Assembly (NCBI GenBank): GCA_010093605.1 | Contig: MU004181.1 | Coordinates: 3,286,001-3,350,000 of the forward strand | Source: Lophium mytilinum | Lineage: Eukaryota | Length of the DNA: 64,000 nucleotides | Direction of reading: 5' to 3' | Part shown: piece after piece, positions 2,864 to 40,126 of the stretch | How the letters are laid out: each line of letters starts with the position of its first letter | How positions within the stretch are numbered: position 1 is the first letter of the stretch | Notes under the pieces: generated by a model | Told to the model about the DNA's origin: nothing | Seen by the model: the letters and a program-made list of their open reading frames with translations, nothing else | The model's database searches: none | Made by a program: the position numbers and the translations under genes

Positions 2864-3753
2864 TAGCCACGTACGAACAGCACGACCTTCGAGGATAATG
2901 GCGCTGGGCGACGGCGATTCCGATAACCCGTTGGTTGCAGAGACCGGGCGCGGATGGTTATGGTCTCGATGGACAAAAGCACTCAGCTCAAGGCACCTCA
3001 GTCAGGCGTCAGGAGCCTTCCAATTAAAAGCTTGCCAGCCCGTCTACTAGATGGGCTGGCTTTTCAACTCTCCTCACGTAAGCTGAACTCTCTCTTCCTC
3101 CACCAACACAATACTAACAAGCTCCAGGCGTGCTTCGATGAATGTAGATGCGTGCTGCATGTGACCACTGGCTGGACAAGATATAACGCTTCTAGAGCAG
3201 GAGACCACAATACCAGGCAGCCATGGCAGAACAATCGTCTGTCTAGGTAGGTAATCCACAGTTGACTGCCAAGGTTCACTGGCCATACAATTTCCCCCCA
3301 TGTGCTCTTTCGATGTCGGCTGTATATCGAGACTGTGGCTTTGCTCCTCCTATTGGGTTTCTACGTAAGACCGGGCACTGAATTTTGAGTTTCGGCTTGC
3401 AGCCACCGTTGGATACACTGAGAGTGGACAATCGTAACTCAGTCTGGTAGTCTTGGGTACTGCGCTGTGCAGAACCAGGATAGATAGTGAATACACCATT
3501 AATCAAGCCTCTTCTCTATGCTTACCTACACAATTCCGATTGGCCCGTGCTAGCGAGACCTAGTCCCGTGTGCGGAGTATTCCGAACTGTCTTGAGCCAT
3601 GAACAGGTGGAGTCAGGTGTGCTTGCATTCATCTTGGCAACCACTATCGAGAATATTGCGAAGGTGCACAGATTTATCGCTTAAGCCCCGCTTATTTGTC
3701 TAGACTATATACCAAAAAATTTGTGCTTCATCCATTCAACACCAAAAGTTGCA

Positions 3754-3853
3754 GGCAAGATGGCCGAGCGGTCCAAGGCGCTAGCTTCAGGCTTTCCCCA
3801 GTGAGAGTATGCTAGTATCGTAAGATGCGTGGGTTCGAATCCCACTCTTGTCA
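3754..3853 (+). tRNA. tRNA-Leu(CAG) with 18-nt intron (3792-3809)
   Basis: Acceptor stem GGCAAGA/TCTTGTC+A; D-arm TGGCCGAGCGGTCCAAGGC; anticodon stem CTAGC/GCTAG around TT-CAG-G; long variable arm; T-arm GGTTCGAATCC; downstream T-runs as Pol III terminator. Confidence 0.95.
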
Positions 3854-4172
3854 ATTATTCTTTTGCTTTTGAGCATCAATTTTTTGCAATGTGGAAGAGT
3901 GGGGATGGGCTAGTCGAGACATTCGACGCTACCGAATTGTGAGGGGAAGCTGGTCACGCACACCCCGCTAGCGCCACCATATAAACCCCGTGCGAACTGC
4001 AACATCGCCTTCTTCAGTCCTCAAGCACTCTTCACAATACCTCCATTGGCTGCTCTCTCGTCATCCCTCATACTCAATGCTGGGCTCATAGCACTCTCTA
4101 TTTGCTCTACAGAGCTAGTGCCTTTACTTTCACCTTTTCCCGCTTCTTTCACCTTCTCCACCTCTTAAAAGC

Positions 4173-6549
4173 ATGGTTTCATGGGCATTCTTGTCTCAGG
4201 GCCACGCCCGGCGTTGGACTCTACTCCTTCTTACGACTGTATTCTTAAAAGGTGTTTATGGAGAGGTAATTACACCACCGAAATCCCAACAAGCATCTCA
4301 ATTGCGACTCTGTGCTGACAGGATTGAATCGCCGCTCTAGAAACGTATCTTGAAGCAAGACCCTCACTATCCCAACCTTTCTCCGCTCGCAGGAAATAAA
4401 CCAGCTAAATTCGACCCGCCCCGTGATTCCCTCGAAGAGCTCCGCCATGCGCTCGAGACGATGCAGAGCGATTACTTCAAGATATGGCTTGGCAAATGGC
4501 CCGACGCCATTGACTGGACCGCCGCTGTCATGGGAACCCACATGTCTGCCGCCCTTTACTCTCTCACTCGATCCCTGGAATACAGCATGCCGGGCACAAA
4601 GAAAGAGGGTCAGCGCGTAGAGAACGAGATCAATAAATACTTCTCGCAGGCCATCACATACTTTTTCGGGGAGGACCACTTCGCCATCCGAACTCAGGCC
4701 TACGATGTAAGTAAGGTCAGGGTCAGCATACCAGTAAGGTCAGGGTCAGCATACCAGAGCCCTCTTGTGTCAAGTTTTTCTCAGTGCCACTAGAGCGCGT
4801 ACTTAGACATGACTCGAGTCGCGTTGCGGCAACTTCCTAGGTCGTCACGCTGCGCATGAAACAGGTGGCCTACTGAGAAAGTATTCTGTCTTGCGTAGGA
4901 TATACCTGTCTGCCGCTGCTTGTGGTGTTTCTATGCATTTCCAAGACTTCAAACGAGAGAAAAATCTCGGGCTTGGGTTGAAGCACTTGAAACAGTGGCA
5001 GACAGGTGTACACACGACCGCACAAGACAGAATTCTTGCTGAGTGTGCCACCTTTTTCATGTCTGGGGTGGTCATGTCAAAAGGCTTCTATCATCCGGCC
5101 TGGAACATCTGTTGAGCTATTCCTTGAACAGATTAACCCAGTGTCTTGGACATGATCTAAGTGGCCGAAGAGGGAAACTCACACTAGAGGATCTAGTATC
5201 TGTCCTACTTCCCCCTCTTTGTAAACACTAGTATGCATACTAACATTGTGAAGGATATGCTATGGGTTGTTCTCGGCTGGCTCGAGAACATACGGTTCAT
5301 TGGGGAGCACAATTCGCTGCATTATCCTGCAAAGAGTGACTCAAACGGTGAATCGCAGTGGTATGGAAAACAGTTCGAGGACGCGTTCGCCCACCGCGCT
5401 CGTGTTTTCTACGATCTAGCTAAGAAAGGCTGGGACACGAAGGAGTGCGGCGGAGGCATGACATGGGACCCACACGAGAAAACCTACAAGAACGCCATCA
5501 CGAACGAGCTGTTCATCGCTGCCAGTATCGGCATGTATCTACATTTCCCGGGCGACTCCAACTGCTCCCCCTTCATGTCCATGGACGACGGATCTGACGA
5601 CGGATCTGACGACGGATCTGACGACGAGGCCCGAATCGTCGAAGAAGGCGACGGAGTGTGCAAGTCGCCTAACAAACCAGCCCCAGCCCACGACCCCGTC
5701 TATCTCAAATTCGCCGTGGACGGATACAAATGGCTGAAAAACTCTAACATGACCAACGCAAAGGGCCTCTATGTCGACGGCTTCCACGTGACCAACGGCA
5801 AATGCGATAAACGCAACGAAATGGTCTACACCTATAACCAAGGCGTCCTACTGTCCGGCCTGCGCGGATTATGGGAAGGAACAGGCAACCTTACCTACCT
5901 TGACGACGGCCACAAGCTCGTTCGCGATGTGATCCGCGCCACTGGATGGAAGCCGGGCCACGGCTTGATAGATAAACGCAAGGAGTCGTGGGCCGGTCTC
6001 GGGAGGGACGGTATCCTCACCGAGAACTGCGACGCCGCTGGCACCTGCTCTCAGAACAGCCAGACTTTCAAGGGCATCTTCTTCCACCACTTGACTCTCT
6101 TCTGCAAGCCCCTGCCCCTGTCGCCCCTAATTCCCGGCAAAACTCACTCCGCAAGCAAGACGGATGCTATGCTCCATCGCCAGAGCTGCAAAGAATACGC
6201 GCCATGGGTGGCGCGCAACGCACAAGCGGCATTGCAAACAAGGAAGGATGGCAGGTTCGGTGGGTGGTGGGCGCCGAGTAATGAGACAGCTGAAGCACTT
6301 CCGGATAAGGCAGTCGACTATCGCAACCGGCTAGAGAGAAAACGCGACGTGTATGAGCTTACCGATGTCCAACTTGCCGCCATGCAAAAGAAGAAAACAA
6401 ACCATCGTGCTCAGAAATTGAAGCCACGAGGTGGGGAGGACGAGGACCTGAATGATAGGGGCCTCGGCCGGACGGTTGAGACGCAGGGCGGGGGCGTCGC
6501 CGTCGTTCGGGCGATGTGGGAGTTTGTGAACATGTACAATCAAGATTAA
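4173..6549 (+). CDS. Glycoside hydrolase family 76 (alpha-1,6-mannanase/Dfg5-like family), 3 exons
   Basis: Exons 4173-4265, 4341-4706 and 5254-6549 join in frame, giving AYD|DMLW (GH76 YDD motif), CGGGMTW, YKNAITNEL, YTYNQG and FKGIF. Hydrophobic N-terminus. Confidence 0.92.
4707..5253 (+). other. Unusually long (547 nt), highly self-complementary spliceosomal intron
   Basis: GTAAGT donor at 4707, TACTAAC branch near 5238-5244, AAG acceptor ending 5253. Nested inverted repeats 4742-4811/5151-5206 and 4855-4958/4965-5061. Confidence 0.88.
4710..4757 (+). repeat. Perfect 23-bp tandem duplication at the intron 5' end
   Basis: AGTAAGGTCAGGGTCAGCATACC twice, followed by AG. Confidence 0.95.
5584..5625 (+). 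repeat. Coding 12-bp minisatellite (DDGS x3) in GH76
   Basis: GACGACGGATCT three times plus GACGAC. Confidence 0.9.
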
Positions 6550-7294
6550 CGTGCTGTTTTGGGAATACGTTGGTTGGAAGGCGTAATAATAGGGTTTATA
6601 CAGTACCAGGTCATATTTTTGAAAACATGGATACTCTACTGCTCTGGCTCCACCCTTACTTTCTTGACGCCACTGTCAGGAATGCCCTGGCCAACATGCC
6701 TATAGTCGATCAAAAGGTAGTCTAATTTCCACCGGGCTGACCAAAATTGCATCTAGAGTTTCGAAAGCATTTTGGGGTGCCCCAAGATTTTCAAGGGTCG
6801 CCCGAAATGTAGTTACGCCATGTAATCGCCGTCCATCTAACTCGCCTTGACATGCAGCTATCTTGGTACTGATGACTTCCCCGACTCCGAGTGAGACGTC
6901 AAGCCCAGTGAGTCAGTACTCTTATCTAGTGTTATTAGTTCCTTTGTGGAGACTCAGTCTGGTCTAATAAAGCTGTGTTTTCACTCCATATCTGATCTTA
7001 GCATCGTTCGTATCGCATATCGAGTATACGAAGCCCGATCCGGGCTAGCTCGATCCGCTTTTATTGGCCAAATTACTCCCCCTCGCCAGATTCCGAGGAC
7101 TGGAACGTAGCTATAAGACACAAGCCTCCTGAACCGGACTTTCGATTGCTCCGGATACGATTGAGCGGGATCCGCGGGCTGCTTTGCTGCTGCGCTGAGC
7201 GAGTATATATAAAGACCGGCAACGAAGGAGAGACAGAAGTATCTCATCCTCAACCTCCTCTCCAAGTACAACCGTAAGATCCCCAACCACACCA

Positions 7295-37430: not shown

Positions 37431-40126
37431 ATGTCGCATAACGTGTGTGTTACAGCGGGGTTCTGCATCTTCCATACGATACCTCTTTCTAGGGCTCTCT
37501 CTTTCCGGGACGAAGTGATGACGATTTGCATGAGCGGGGTTGCCCTTTTTTGACCTTGTTCGTAGGGTGGATGAAGTGGTCTTTGTGGAGGGGAGGCGTG
37601 TGGAAATACCATTTCGTGGTAATCATTCTTGCTCCAAGCTGGTATCTCCTGCGATTGCAACGGTTAGTACATTGCTTGATGGAGAGGAAAAACTCGGCCG
37701 TGGATTTGTATGCAATGCATCATGGTTCTGGATTACTCTCCCCTTCGGTTCAGCCTATGCGAGTGTGCTCGTTGCGTACCTCAACTTCTTAGGGATTGGC
37801 AATCTGTTGGACTAAATTGCTTTCTGATGGATCACCGATTACTAACAAGCTAGGGGAGGGCCATACTTTACGGTCATTTGTTTTGACAGTTCACCTAGCC
37901 GTAGACTGCAAGCCCTGAGGTATTCCCGCGAGACTTGACTCCCCCGCACTCTAGGACCTCGAGCCCCTTGTTCATCCCCACTCCACAGACTTCAGATACG
38001 AGCTGCCTCAGACACCTCCTGCGAGACTCGAGATCTTCTCCCGAAGCTCAAACACCCCCACCTCGTGTGTAAGCTTGTATTCTGTGGATCACCCTTCGAC
38101 AAAGCCCACCATCTGTGCCAGCAGACATGTACCTAGGTAGTTGCCCAAGCTGATCGTCAGCCTTCTGTCAGCCCAATCGGCTTTACCTGGAATTTGAAGA
38201 GATAGATACACCTGTAGACATAGTGACAACGCATCCAGCCATCCATACCGTAAGTTTACTTCAATCGTTCTGTGATCAAGGGGTTTGATTGAGCTGACAG
38301 CCCTATGGAAGATCCGCCCCATAAAGCCTCTATGTCTTGAGTTTACCAATTATATACGTAATATCTACCTCACAGAGCGAAATCTAAACAACGATTAGTC
38401 ATGTCTGCCCGTATACCCCTCAAGAGACGAGTGATATCGCTGGGTATTTGGAGCTTTGAAGTCGTCAAAGCTTGACTGGATTGTGTTGCTAGTGTAACAC
38501 TGCGTCATGCAGCGCAAGTAGCCCAGGTGAGGGATTGATTGCCAGCTATAATACATGAACGGAATCCGGTAGGTTTTACTCCATAGGCGGTACTTAGAAC
38601 TCCTGATTGTAAGTAAGGTTTTGGAATCGCTCCCTACATAGTACAAACTCATATCAGAAGTTACGGCGTCGGCGCTGCGGGAACATAACAGCTGTTATCT
38701 TGGGAGGGCCGTATGAGATTGAGAAAGAACTAGAGACTATTACCGCGACTCAGACTACGTTCAGCGATGCTGTTTCTGCCTCTCAAGGCGAGAACAGAGC
38801 TCGGTAGAATGGGGCAGCTTTGATGCTTTTATTAAATTATGAAGTAAGAAATCACAGAGTTTTGCAGTCTAATCTTGGGATTGAATTTCTCTTCCACGGT
38901 TCTAGAAAGAGGATAGTGCATTTTCATTTGGGGTTCGATATATTATGGATGGTTCTCAGTAGCTAGAAAAGATGCAACTCTTGGTGCCAATGGATCGGAC
39001 AGTCTCATAACAGTGCTTCAAGCTCGTATCAATACACTTTAGCAGTATCAGAGACTAAGAAGCACAACTAGAAGGATCACGTGATGGTGGCAATTGACGC
39101 TAGTAAATGATCCTCTAGATAGATCCCTCTCCTTTGCCGTTCACCCCGCCAAGCTCAAATGCTAGCAGTAGGTCTCTTTGAGCAAGCTAGAGAGTAACTC
39201 AGCCGTCTCGGACAGCGCCCGGCCACCGTCTGAGAAAACCTCGCGATTGAGCGATGGATCGACTAGCTACAGATGTTTATCTGTACCGCGTGACTCTAAC
39301 AATGGTATCTTAGACGCAGAGATTCAGGAGATATCTGGCTTGCTGAGCAACGTGTGCTTTGTAGTATGCATGACGGAGAGCTAGCGGAAGGGATGCATGA
39401 ATTGAATGATGATTTGTTTGATTGGATGGAGTGCAGTACTTCGTATGAAAGGTTGAACAACTTACGGACATAATGTAATCAAGATATCATTACACGCAAA
39501 AGTATTCATTGAAGTCAGAAGATTCCCTATAAAAGGTGTTTCCAGAGTAGTTTGACGCGTCAACCCTATCACGCGGGGCATGAGAAAGGTGGCACCCTCT
39601 TCTTACTTTTGTACCCCTGCTTGTGGTGCTTCAATGCATTTTCAAGATAACAAAGGTGATAGAAACTCTTAACGTTTGGCTACGTGAATATTTGTTAAGA
39701 TACTCCAGGCAGTGGCAGACCGGAGCACCTTCTGTACGAAGTACAATAGCCATAAGAGAGCGTGGAAGATAAGTGGCAATAGAAATTGGCAGTCTATAAA
39801 TTTCTAAGCTTTACCTATTACTTGTACGCTTGTTTAGCACCTTTAGAGGTCCTCCAGTATGCTATTTCTACTCATGAAATACCAGCTTTGGCAAGCCTGA
39901 TAGCTCTTCGGGCGACCTCAGACAGTGTTGAACTGCTGTAGTGTGTCACTCTTTTGCTGCCCAGGTATTAATTGTGGTTTGACGCGTCAGCCCTAGGTAT
40001 CAAGCCGCTGCACAGCCTCACCGGTATGACGAGCATCCTAAGACGCTCTTGAACAGCTCCCTTCCCAGCACAGCTTCACTCAACTCCCCCCTCCAAATCA
40101 CCTTCCAATCAAACTAAACCACCAAA

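What the first reader, a model, noticed from the sequence alone, without database searches (positions are those of the whole stretch)
4707..5253. 547-nt intron that folds into an almost end-to-end RNA rod and splits the GH76 catalytic Asp-Asp pair
Seen: this intron is several times longer than the other introns here (mostly ~50-110 nt) and lies exactly between the two GAT codons of YD|D. Nested inverted repeats cover most of it. 4742-4790 pairs with 5161-5206 (CCTCTTGTGTCAAGTTTTTCTC vs rc CCTCTAGTGTGAGTTTCCCTC). ACTTAGACATG (4801-4811) pairs with CATGATCTAAGT (5151-5162). A ~75-bp stem pairs 4855-4931 with 4980-5061, including ATTCTGTCTTG and ACCTGTCTGCC perfect blocks. It is capped by CCAAG/CTTGG and CGAGA-gaaaaa-TCTCG, with a side hairpin ATCTGTT/AACAGAT (5107-5133). 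Folding would bring the donor within a few tens of nt of the branch point, recreating a normal-sized effective intron. Established: the adjacent DD are the GH76 catalytic residues, and structured introner-like elements are known in Dothideomycetes. Inference: it could be an introner-like or fold-back element tolerated through its structure, a dsRNA/milRNA precursor, or a structure-gated splicing switch. By hand count, G-U-compatible changes only slightly favour the sense strand (~8 vs ~5), which is not decisive.
Basis: partly seen in the sequence, partly recalled or inferred. Interest (0 to 1): 0.82.

Follow-up and report, generated by a model that had tools for sequence, protein, structure and literature searches.

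The report
Recently gained foldback intron in GH76
A fungal cell-wall enzyme gene carries an unusually long intron made of hairpin-forming repeat DNA that seems to have entered cleanly between two essential codons only in this lineage, a well-documented example of how new introns arise rather than a new kind of element.

Summary
4707-5253 is a 547-nt, phase-0, GT..AG intron between the two Asp codons of an invariant YDD motif. Contigs of an RNA-like public run join 4706 to 5254 exactly. It folds far better than shuffles (z -7.6), but the antisense strand folds almost as well (z -6.9; 22 vs 20 G-U pairs). The rod is therefore a DNA-level nested inverted repeat, with no sign of an RNA-specific structure.

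The inner hairpin (about 4818-5061) is one copy of a dispersed repeat family. Many other contigs of the same genome carry it, and a decayed intergenic copy lies at 39.5 kb in the window. The outer parts, which carry the splice signals, were single-copy at 80% likeness or more.

The intron is lineage-specific. All 79 informative homologous fungal loci read straight through D-D. A contig of a roughly 95%-identical relative, whose contigs keep intron 1, lacks exactly these 547 nt. There is no target-site duplication.

Best reading: a recently and seamlessly gained introner-like intron built around a MITE-like foldback repeat. No data here test a milRNA or splicing-switch role. It is a new variant of a known kind, of moderate interest.

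The parts
4173..4265 (+). GH76 exon 1 (start codon at 4173)
   Evidence: Open spliced frame. X3 contig joins 4263>4339 with cut +2, i.e. 4265|4341.
4266..4340 (+). Intron 1, 75 nt, ordinary size
   Evidence: GT..AG joint in an X3 contig. X4 contigs 24-26 run through it, with small indels at 4277-4284.
4341..4706 (+). GH76 exon 2, ending ...AYD (GAT)
   Evidence: In 24 of the 25 best loci its end maps 0 nt from the start of exon 3.
4707..5253 (+). Intron 2, 547 nt, phase 0, between the two Asp codons: the finding itself
   Evidence: Joint 4706>5254 GT..AG in X3 and X4 contigs. Fold z -7.6 (+) and -6.9 (-).
4710..4755 (+). Perfect 23-nt tandem duplication just inside the donor. Each unit holds a GTAAGG donor-like word and a GGTCAG doublet.
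   Evidence: (D1, 100% identity). No junction using the extra GTAAGG words was listed.
4743..4809 (.). Outer inverted repeat, left arm (partner 5142-5206)
   Evidence: Local inverted alignment score 20, 0 of 1000 shuffles as good. Duplex -93.1 against -70.2 +/- 6.1. Single-copy at 80% or more in X1/X2 contigs.
4818..4940 (.). 5' arm of the repeat-family hairpin. Family likeness starts near 4818-4830; the strong stem runs from 4855.
   Evidence: nhmmer and alignment to the 39.5-kb copy start at about 4828-4830. The reverse complement of the loose-end consensus behind 5061 resembles 4828-4855 by eye. Contigs of other copies were laid from 4904.
4941..4976 (.). Hairpin cap (CCAAG..CGAGA-gaaaaa-TCTCG..CTTGG). 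It is about 16 nt shorter than in the 39.5-kb copy.
   Evidence: Loose ends before 4977 in other copies.
4977..5061 (.). 3' arm of the hairpin, the most repeated segment. One other contig in each of X1, X2 and X3 carries it with 0 differences.
   Evidence: table 8 (records 2-6, 10-14, 20), with loose ends at 4977 and 5061.
5107..5133 (.). Small side hairpin (ATCTGTT..AACAGAT)
5142..5206 (.). Outer inverted repeat, right arm
5229..5244 (+). 14-nt perfect palindrome (5229-5242) overlapping the branch-point word TACTAAC (5238-5244). The branch A is at 5243, 10 nt before the acceptor.
   Evidence: (I6). Positions 5239-5241 are mostly paired in the ensemble (P unpaired 0.06-0.13); the branch A is mostly free (0.70).
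5254..6549 (+). GH76 exon 3 (D MLWVVLGW ... stop)
   Evidence: Pfam PF03663, E 5.5e-26. 1928 homologues found, most named ones from Dothideomycetes.
39553..39745 (+). Second, decayed, intergenic copy of the core repeat, which no longer folds
   Evidence: BLAST and nhmmer hits (E 1.2e-10), alignment, fold z +0.46. No ORF of 80 aa or more between 38652 and 40114.

Best explanation
This is a genuine, canonically spliced spliceosomal intron that was gained in this lineage. It is not an old intron.

Its body is a nested imperfect inverted repeat. The central hairpin (about 4818-5061) is one copy of a dispersed, MITE-like foldback repeat family that is abundant in this genome and in its close relative. 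The outer roughly 270 nt carry strong splice signals (GTAAGT, TACTAAC, AG), form a second and weaker inverted repeat, and had no other copy in the genome at 80% likeness or more.

The DNA entered seamlessly between the two Asp codons of the invariant YDD motif, with no target-site duplication, so exact splicing restores the ancestral reading frame. This is the way ascomycete introner-like elements are reported to insert.

The rod-like fold is a property of the repeat DNA and is equally strong on both strands.

Inferred, not shown: in the pre-mRNA the fold leaves the donor and the branch A free and shortens the donor-to-branch path, which would help a 547-nt insert be spliced in a fungus whose introns are normally under 100 nt.

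Not resolved: whether the composite arrived in one step, or the core repeat landed later in a freshly gained intron.
For: Splicing: X3 contigs join 4706>5254 (GT..AG) and also join intron 1. The spliced frame is open and matches orthologues.

Lineage-specific:
- A 92-aa probe across the site gives one uninterrupted HSP in 79 of 80 metagenomic fungal GH76 loci. The 80th (L047) is cut by its contig end. The 79 comprise 56 distinct peptides, 77 of them with DD[MIL]LW.
- In 24 of the 25 best loci, the end of exon 2 and the start of exon 3 lie 0 nt apart. In the 25th (L025) the exon-2 match stops 16 residues early and 130 nt upstream, but its frame reads ...EAYD|DMLWV... without a break at D-D.

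Recent: X4 (organism C; exon pieces 0-10 differences per 104-194 nt) has a 298-nt contig joining 4706>5254 exactly. Three other X4 contigs run through intron 1. That pattern fits genomic DNA lacking only intron 2.

Repeat family:
- In the DNA runs X1 and X2, 104 and 98 records were laid, and extra contigs pile up only on about 4887-5120.
- Table 8 lists 5 other contigs per run carrying 4977-5061 with 0-15 differences. Eleven to twelve contigs have loose ends at 4977 and at 5061.
- Bins 4653-4886 and 5121-5237 show only the single home contig.
- A second copy lies in the window at 39.5 kb.
- X4 has a high-depth contig of the same core.

No target-site duplication: the empty site is TACGAT^GATATG and the joint is ambiguous by only 1 nt ('both' = 1).

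DNA-level fold: z -7.6 against -6.9; inner part -10.8 against -10.2; outer duplex -93.1 against -94.9; G-U pairs 22 against 20.

Literature: seamless, TSD-free insertion and long, stably folding new introns are reported for ascomycetes (PMC9860276, PMC3609843, PMC8469720).
Against: X4's kind is not on record, and the run could be RNA. In that case its joint shows only splicing, and the gain is dated only as younger than the split from relatives about 59-73% identical in protein.

X3 is RNA only by a guess, although its two exact GT..AG joints support the guess.

The whole genome was not available. Copies of the outer parts below 80% likeness, or filtered out of the contig tables, cannot be excluded. 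Whether other copies of the core sit in introns is unknown.

The 3' arm is identical to another copy up to 5061 and then loses family likeness abruptly, whereas the 5' arm keeps it for about 35 nt more. No simple insertion model explains this.

The 80 outgroup loci are metagenomic, partly redundant, and may include paralogues.

The cofold test of the outer arms alone was not significant (z -1.4 on + and -2.5 on -).
Confidence: 0.62

Rival explanations
1. It is a full member of a true introner / introner-like element family. Under this reading the whole 547 nt, including both splice sites, is the mobile unit and has sister copies as introns at new positions in unrelated genes. The outer parts looked single-copy only because the sisters are under 80% alike or were filtered out.
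For: The gain is new, seamless and without a target-site duplication. The intron has strong canonical signals, is much longer than intron 1, is very stably folded and has sequence relatives elsewhere in the genome. These are the traits listed for ILEs (PMC3609843 passages) and for ascomycete introners (PMC9860276 passages). The other copies are themselves heterogeneous beyond 5061, with loose-end agreement of 0.54-0.59.
Against: In X1 and X2 no second contig was laid on 4707-4886 or 5121-5253 at 80% likeness or more. The in-window second copy shares only about 4828-5012 and is intergenic. A copy made after the split from a roughly 95%-identical relative should still be well above 80% like its source.
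Confidence: 0.2
2. It is an old intron at this site that was lost exactly (cDNA-mediated loss) in organism C and in the other fungi sampled. In this lineage it was merely inflated by insertion of a MITE.
For: Exact loss of the 3'-most intron while the 5' intron is kept is what cDNA-mediated loss produces (mechanism as described in PMC3609843 passages). The core is a repeat that could have been inserted later.
Against: All 79 informative loci, comprising 56 distinct sequences, lack an intron here. This reading would need very many independent exact losses. Taking out the repeat core still leaves about 270 nt of inverted-repeat sequence, which is not an ordinary short fungal intron.
Confidence: 0.06
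3. The hairpin has a selected RNA function. It would be a Dicer substrate (milRNA or dsRNA precursor), or a structure-gated switch that sets how much active enzyme is made by controlling removal of an intron sitting in the catalytic site.
For: There is a long near-perfect stem (z about -10.8). Both spliced and unspliced contigs are present in X3, whereas for intron 1 only the spliced form was listed. Retention gives a stop after 28 codons. Part of the branch-point word is paired in the model.
Against: Both strands fold equally well and there is no G-U excess on the sense strand. The hairpin is a generic multi-copy repeat, also found decayed in an intergenic site. No Rfam match. No covariation data and no small-RNA data. 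The intron is absent from the close relative, so any such role would be very young.
Confidence: 0.07

Closest known systems
Introner-like elements (ILEs) of Dothideomycetes (van der Burgt et al. 2012, known to me only as cited; Collemare et al. 2013 PMC3609843 and 2015 PMC4457414, passages read)
   Same: Same fungal class. A newly gained intron at a position empty in other species, with canonical donor, branch point and acceptor. It is much longer than regular introns, has a very stable predicted structure, and has sequence relatives elsewhere in the genome.
   Different: ILEs are defined by hundreds of near-identical full-length intron copies in unrelated genes. Here only the central hairpin is multi-copy, and the splice-site-bearing ends were single-copy at 80% or more. 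At 547 nt it is far above 'about twice a regular intron'. The known ILE families are from Capnodiales, whereas the nearest named relatives of this gene are Lepidopterella, Glonium and Coniosporium.
Ascomycete introners with 'direct insertion' (Gozashti et al. 2022, PMC9860276, passages read, including the Fig. 2A legend on Alternaria alternata)
   Same: Seamless insertion with no target-site duplication and no change to the mRNA. The length lies within the reported family range (median 30-654 nt).
   Different: Family membership in that study needs at least 5 similar introns per genome, which could not be shown here.
Internally symmetrical (stw)introns of Hypoxylaceae (Fekete et al. 2021, PMC8469720, abstract and section 3.5 read)
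   Same: Introns that resemble their own reverse complement (imperfect terminal inverted repeats about 73% identical). They integrated seamlessly at new positions without flanking duplications. The donor G, branch A and acceptor G are left unpaired in the predicted hairpin. A genuine intron is present on one strand only.
   Different: Those introns are 93-207 nt, are Sordariomycete, and many are donor-split twin introns. This one is 547 nt, is not a twin intron (the GTAAGG words in the 23-nt duplication would enclose only 19 nt), and its symmetric core is also a dispersed non-intronic repeat.
Intergenic intron-homologous elements of Zymoseptoria (Wu, Macielog and Hao 2017, PMC5647799, section 'Intergenic Regions as Reservoirs' read)
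   Same: Long, recently gained, presence/absence-polymorphic introns with homologues in intergenic DNA.
   Different: There the homology covers 80% or more of the intron length. Here it covers only the central third to half.
MITEs / foldback elements nested in introns (general knowledge; review PMC11282704, passages read)
   Same: A short, non-coding, hairpin-forming, multi-copy element present in both genic and intergenic sites.
   Different: The ends, terminal inverted repeats and target-site duplication of the family could not be defined. The whole intron, and not just the repeat, is missing from the relative.

Membership tests
Spliceosomal (U2-type) intron | GT..AG ends, a branch-point word, and exact removal seen in transcripts | tested here: met
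   GTAAGT at 4707, TACTAAC at 5238-5244, AG at 5252-5253. An X3 contig joins 4706>5254.
Introner-like element / introner | Intron position new relative to orthologues | tested here: met
   All 79 informative loci are uninterrupted at D-D. An X4 contig lacks the intron exactly.
Introner-like element / introner | Many near-identical full-length copies as introns in unrelated genes | tested here: not met
   At 80% likeness or more, only about 4887-5120 is multi-copy in X1/X2 contigs, and the ends are single-copy. The only other copy in the window is partial and intergenic. Caveat: no whole genome was available, and the contig tables are filtered.
Introner-like element / introner | Longer than regular introns, with unusually stable predicted structure | tested here: met
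   547 nt against 75 nt for intron 1. MFE z -7.6. Only 4 of 159 equal-length windows fold as low, all with much higher GC.
Introner-like element / introner | Compensatory changes that maintain the structure among copies | not testable with these tools
   The sequences of the other copies could not be fetched. Only 30-nt loose-end consensus strings were seen.
Cut-and-paste MITE as the origin of the whole intron | Target-site duplication flanking the inserted unit | tested here: not met
   The filled site is TACGAT[intron]GATATG and the empty site TACGATGATATG, with only 1 nt of ambiguity.
MITE / foldback repeat (core 4818-5061 only) | Short, non-coding, inverted-repeat structure, multi-copy and dispersed | tested here: met
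   Inner hairpin z -10.8/-10.2. Several different long contigs carry it. A second copy lies in the window.
MITE / foldback repeat (core only) | Defined terminal inverted repeats and a family-specific target-site duplication | tested here: inconclusive
   The family ends could not be placed. The 5' likeness runs to about 4818-4830, while the 3' likeness stops abruptly at 5061.
[D1,2] stwintron | [quoted passage not shown] | tested here: not met
   The intron starts GTAAGT, not G|GT... The only G|GT...AG|TAAGG arrangement, inside the 23-nt duplication, would enclose 19 nt. No second joint was listed in X3.
GH76 alpha-1,6-mannanase family (host gene) | Pfam PF03663 match above the curated cut-off | tested here: met
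   Exon 3: 92.4 bits against a cut-off of 25.9. Orthologues P0001, P0003 and P0010 also match.
GH76 alpha-1,6-mannanase family (host gene) | The split D-D equals the adjacent catalytic nucleophile and acid/base (Asp124/Asp125 of the Bacillus circulans enzyme) | tested here: inconclusive
   D-D is invariant in 16 of 16 aligned orthologues and present in 77 of 79 loci. The adjacent catalytic Asp pair is documented for BcGH76 (PMC8362039 passages). The Pfam and PDB alignments made here cover only later parts of the protein, so the equivalence is inferred.

The most novel reading that the evidence does not exclude
The foldback core is the mobile module of a still-active introner system in a Dothideomycete lineage outside the Capnodiales. 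In this reading, hairpin or cruciform DNA, or a double-stranded intron RNA, drives seamless insertion without a target-site duplication, as was only speculated for the symmetrical Hypoxylaceae introns. This copy would then be a gain caught early: present here, absent in a roughly 95%-identical relative, and sitting in the middle of a catalytic dyad where only exact splicing keeps the enzyme alive.
Probability: 0.2. Interest if true: 0.75.

Novelty: new variant of a known kind. Interest (0 to 1): 0.5.

Why it matters
Cases in which an intron gain can be pinned to an exact empty site in a close relative are the raw material for working out how new spliceosomal introns arise. For ascomycetes that question is still open: insertions leave no target-site duplication and the mechanism is unknown.

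This one is unusually large, about seven times its neighbouring intron, and is made of hairpin repeat DNA. It is seamless, and it lies between two invariant, probably catalytic, residues, so the gene works only if splicing is exact.

It also shows a mixed architecture, with a multi-copy hairpin core and unique flanks that carry the splice sites. That does not fit the simple picture in which a whole intron is copied, and it could tell between one-step and two-step models once the genome is searched.

As an RNA-structure finding it is ordinary. The rod is a by-product of inverted-repeat DNA.

Tried and rejected
1. Whole-genome copy search: not possible, because no genome is held for this window (error).

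2. Earlier notes of this scan: nothing for this sequence, nothing for this genome, and nothing relevant by words.

3. RNA evidence: no RNA holder is listed for the stretch. X3 is RNA only by the tool's guess. The lack of X3 cover over 3600-4067, and of X4 cover over the flanks, is not used as evidence. A spliced-to-unspliced ratio from contig depths (about 354 against 166-199 in X3) is not reliable, because each contig carries a single depth figure.

4. Copy number: the summed depth over 4887-5120 (about 4600 against 168 in X1) is only a rough sign of many copies. The tool warns that it is not a copy number.

5. Cofold z-score of the outer arms alone: weak (z -1.4 on + and -2.5 on -). I relied instead on the duplex and local-alignment tests.

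6. Sense-strand bias: rejected (22 against 20 G-U pairs, similar z-scores).

7. Stwintron reading of the GTAAGG words in the 23-nt duplication: rejected, since the enclosed piece would be 19 nt and no extra joint was seen.

8. Both exon-intron junctions resemble two adjacent words inside the 5' arm: 4697-4713 against 4867-4883 (76%), and 5246-5258 against 4891-4903 (85%). By rough arithmetic of mine, done without a tool call, about four such matches are expected by chance in the region. Only 3 of 6 arm differences point toward the junction sequence. I treat this as chance.

9. Rfam: no family in the intron.

10. Aligning the YDD motif to solved GH76 structures or to the Pfam profile: the alignments cover only later parts of the protein.

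11. A target-site duplication or terminal repeats of the core repeat: not definable from two window copies and 30-nt loose-end strings.

12. Supplementary tables of the introner papers were not available. They may list families from relatives of this fungus.
Full report
**The observation.** Joining exons 4173-4265, 4341-4706 and 5254-6549 gives an open 584-codon frame reading ...RTQAYD|DMLWVVLGW.... The 547-nt gap is in phase 0, between two GAT codons. It starts GTAAGT, has a perfect TACTAAC at 5238-5244 (branch A 10 nt before the acceptor) and ends AG.

Exon 3 matches Pfam GH76 (PF03663, 92.4 bits). The protein has 1928 homologues, and most of the named ones are from Dothideomycetes. The best hit is only 67% identical, and the window's own protein is not in the database.

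There is also a perfect 23-nt tandem duplication at 4710-4755, just inside the donor.

**Is it spliced there?** One search of public runs found four holders, and I laid all four on 3600-7100.
- Run X3 is RNA only by the tool's guess. It has a contig joining 4263>4339 (cut +2, i.e. intron 1) and a contig joining 4706>5254 with GT..AG ends, so the predicted splice sites are used.
- X3 also has contigs that run through both ends of the long intron (4678-5022 and 4995-5283). For intron 1 only the joined form was listed.
- Contig depths cannot give a reliable ratio, so I say only that both forms exist. Retention would put a stop 28 codons into the intron.

**Is the fold more than chance, and is it an RNA feature?**
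- The sense strand folds to -209.9 kcal/mol (z -7.60; 0 of 100 shuffles as good). The antisense strand folds to -199.7 (z -6.90).
- The inner part (4855-5061) gives z -10.8 (+) and -10.2 (-).
- For the outer arms (4707-4854 with 5062-5253), a cofold test was weak (z -1.4 and -2.5).
- The inter-arm duplex energy is clearly better than shuffles on both strands: -93.1 against -70.2 +/- 6.1, and -94.9 against -67.0 +/- 6.6, with 0 of 500 shuffles as good in each case. The best local inverted alignment (4743-4809 with 5142-5206, score 20) was reached by 0 of 1000 shuffles.
- G-U pairs number 22 on the sense fold and 20 on the antisense fold.
- Of 159 other 547-nt windows in the 64 kb, 4 fold as low, all with GC of 0.598 or more against 0.479 here.

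The rod is therefore real, but it is a nested inverted repeat in the DNA. Nothing marks it as a sense-strand RNA structure, and no Rfam family matches.

In the MFE model the donor is unpaired and the branch A is mostly unpaired. Three bases of the branch-point word are paired in the outermost helix. The donor-to-branch path shrinks from 531 to 10 nt. This is a prediction only.

**The core is a dispersed repeat.**
- In the DNA runs X1 and X2 (one sample, possibly the source of the window), 104 and 98 records were laid. Extra contigs pile up only over about 4887-5120.
- Table 8 lists five other contigs per run (358 to 31,616 nt long) carrying 4977-5061 with 0-15 differences, one of them with none.
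- Eleven to twelve contigs per run have loose ends before 4977 and behind 5061.
- Bins 4653-4886 and 5121-5237 hold only the single home contig.
- X4, a relative, has a high-depth contig of the same core.
- Inside the window a second copy lies at about 39553-39745 (BLAST; nhmmer E 1.2e-10). It is partial, shares only about 4828-5012, and has about 16 nt more loop. It no longer folds (z +0.46), and it sits in a stretch with no ORF of 80 aa or more.
- The loose-end consensus behind 5061 in other copies, read as its reverse complement, resembles 4828-4855 of this copy by eye. The family hairpin is therefore longer than 4855-5061. In this copy the 5' arm keeps that extension, while the 3' arm loses family likeness abruptly at 5061.
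- I could not define the family's ends or any target-site duplication.

**The intron is lineage-specific.** I aligned 16 orthologues (AYDDMLWVVLGW is essentially invariant) and used the alignment to fetch 80 fungal GH76 loci from metagenome contigs.
- A 92-residue probe centred on YDD gave one uninterrupted HSP across the site in 79 of 80 loci. The 80th (L047) is cut by its contig end.
- The 79 comprise 56 distinct peptides, 77 of them with DD[MIL]LW.
- With the window's own exons as queries, the end of exon 2 and the start of exon 3 lie 0 nt apart in 24 of the 25 best loci. In the 25th (L025) the exon-2 match stops 16 residues short of its end and lies 130 nt upstream. That locus still reads through D-D without a break.
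- These loci are partly redundant, and some may be paralogues. Even so, no occupied site was seen.

**A close relative lacks it exactly.** X4 (organism C) carries this gene at about 94-100% identity per exon piece. One 298-nt contig joins 4706 directly to 5254, with 104 nt on the shorter side. Three other X4 contigs run through intron 1, with small indels inside it.

A run that keeps intron 1 but lacks intron 2 looks like genomic DNA of a relative without the long intron. X4's kind is not on record, and I put about 0.8 on this reading. If X4 is RNA, the joint shows only splicing, and the date of the gain becomes loose.

No such joint exists in X1 or X2, so this is not a paralogue in the same genome.

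**No target-site duplication.** The empty site is TACGAT^GATATG and the filled site is TACGAT[GTAAGT...GTGAAG]GATATG. The joint can shift by only one base. A classical cut-and-paste insertion of the whole unit is therefore not supported. The site is not an AG|G protosplice site either.

**Interpretation.** The best-supported reading is a lineage-specific and probably recent seamless gain of a long intron that carries its own strong splice signals. Its body is foldback repeat DNA.

Shown: the exact splicing, the inverted-repeat nature on both strands, the multi-copy core, the absence from the other sampled fungi, and the lack of a target-site duplication.

Inferred: that X4 is DNA, that the fold helps the spliceosome cope with a 547-nt insert, and the mode of insertion. 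Two origins remain open. Either a composite piece arrived in one step, or a roughly 270-nt structured intron was gained first and a family copy then landed in its centre.

The abrupt end of family likeness at 5061, next to an 85-nt stretch identical to another copy, is unexplained.

**Rivals.**
- A true full-length introner/ILE family (0.2) fails the one test I could make, since the ends are single-copy at 80% or more. That test is imperfect.
- An old intron lost everywhere else (0.06) would need very many exact losses.
- A selected RNA role as milRNA precursor or splicing switch (0.07) has no data here that test it directly. The strand-symmetric fold and the generic repeat nature of the hairpin argue against it.

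**Comparison with what is known.**
- Ascomycete introners insert directly, without transposon hallmarks (PMC9860276, passages including the Fig. 2A legend).
- Hypoxylaceae (stw)introns are internally symmetrical, with inverted repeats of 45-55 nt about 73% identical. They are seamless, have no flanking duplications, and leave the reactive nucleotides unpaired (PMC8469720, abstract and section 3.5).
- Zymoseptoria introns with intergenic homologues are long and presence/absence-polymorphic (PMC5647799, one section).

This intron works like these but differs in three ways: its size, its mixed architecture (repeated core, unique splice-bearing flanks), and its taxon. I therefore do not file it as an ILE family member.

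**The catalytic D-D claim.** That the split D-D is the catalytic pair follows from its invariance here and from the adjacent Asp124/Asp125 of the Bacillus circulans enzyme (PMC8362039, passages). My alignments to solved structures and to Pfam did not reach that part of the protein.

**Verdict.** This is a new variant of a known kind: TE- or introner-type intron gain in fungi. Interest is moderate. It would rise if a genome-wide search shows the hairpin family making other new introns.

Noticed in passing
window 3754-3853 (+): A tRNA gene about 320 nt upstream of the GH76 start. It matches Rfam tRNA at 49.4 bits over 100 nt, so it probably contains an intron or a long variable arm. ARAGORN in its bacterial setting did not call it.
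   Followed up: partly
window about 5583-5630 (+), exon 3: A tandem 15-nt repeat encoding DDGSD x3 in a poorly conserved loop of the enzyme. The relative X4 lacks 24 nt at 5585. It also has in-frame indels further on: +3 behind 6243, +21 behind 6298 and -6 at 6438.
   Followed up: no
window 39553-39566 and 39976-39989: Two near-identical words containing the palindrome GACGCGTC lie about 420 nt apart. They flank the decayed repeat copy in an AT-richer intergenic stretch (GC 0.454 for 38001-40000). They may mark a larger or rearranged element.
   Followed up: no
window 5229-5242: A perfect 14-nt palindrome overlaps the first five bases of the branch-point word TACTAAC. It is complementary to the GCATAC word present in both units of the 23-nt duplication near the donor.
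   Followed up: partly
window about 6558-6580 (3' UTR of the GH76 gene): In X1 and X2, a contig from elsewhere joins repeat-core sequence (up to 5002) directly to sequence like 6558 onward, with only 22 nt on the shorter side. Depth is doubled near 6560. This is possibly a short fragment of the same or another repeat in the 3' UTR, or chance.
   Followed up: no
window 4277-4284 (intron 1), run X4: Two X4 contigs differ from each other by small insertions inside intron 1. This suggests two haplotypes or strains of the relative in that run.
   Followed up: no
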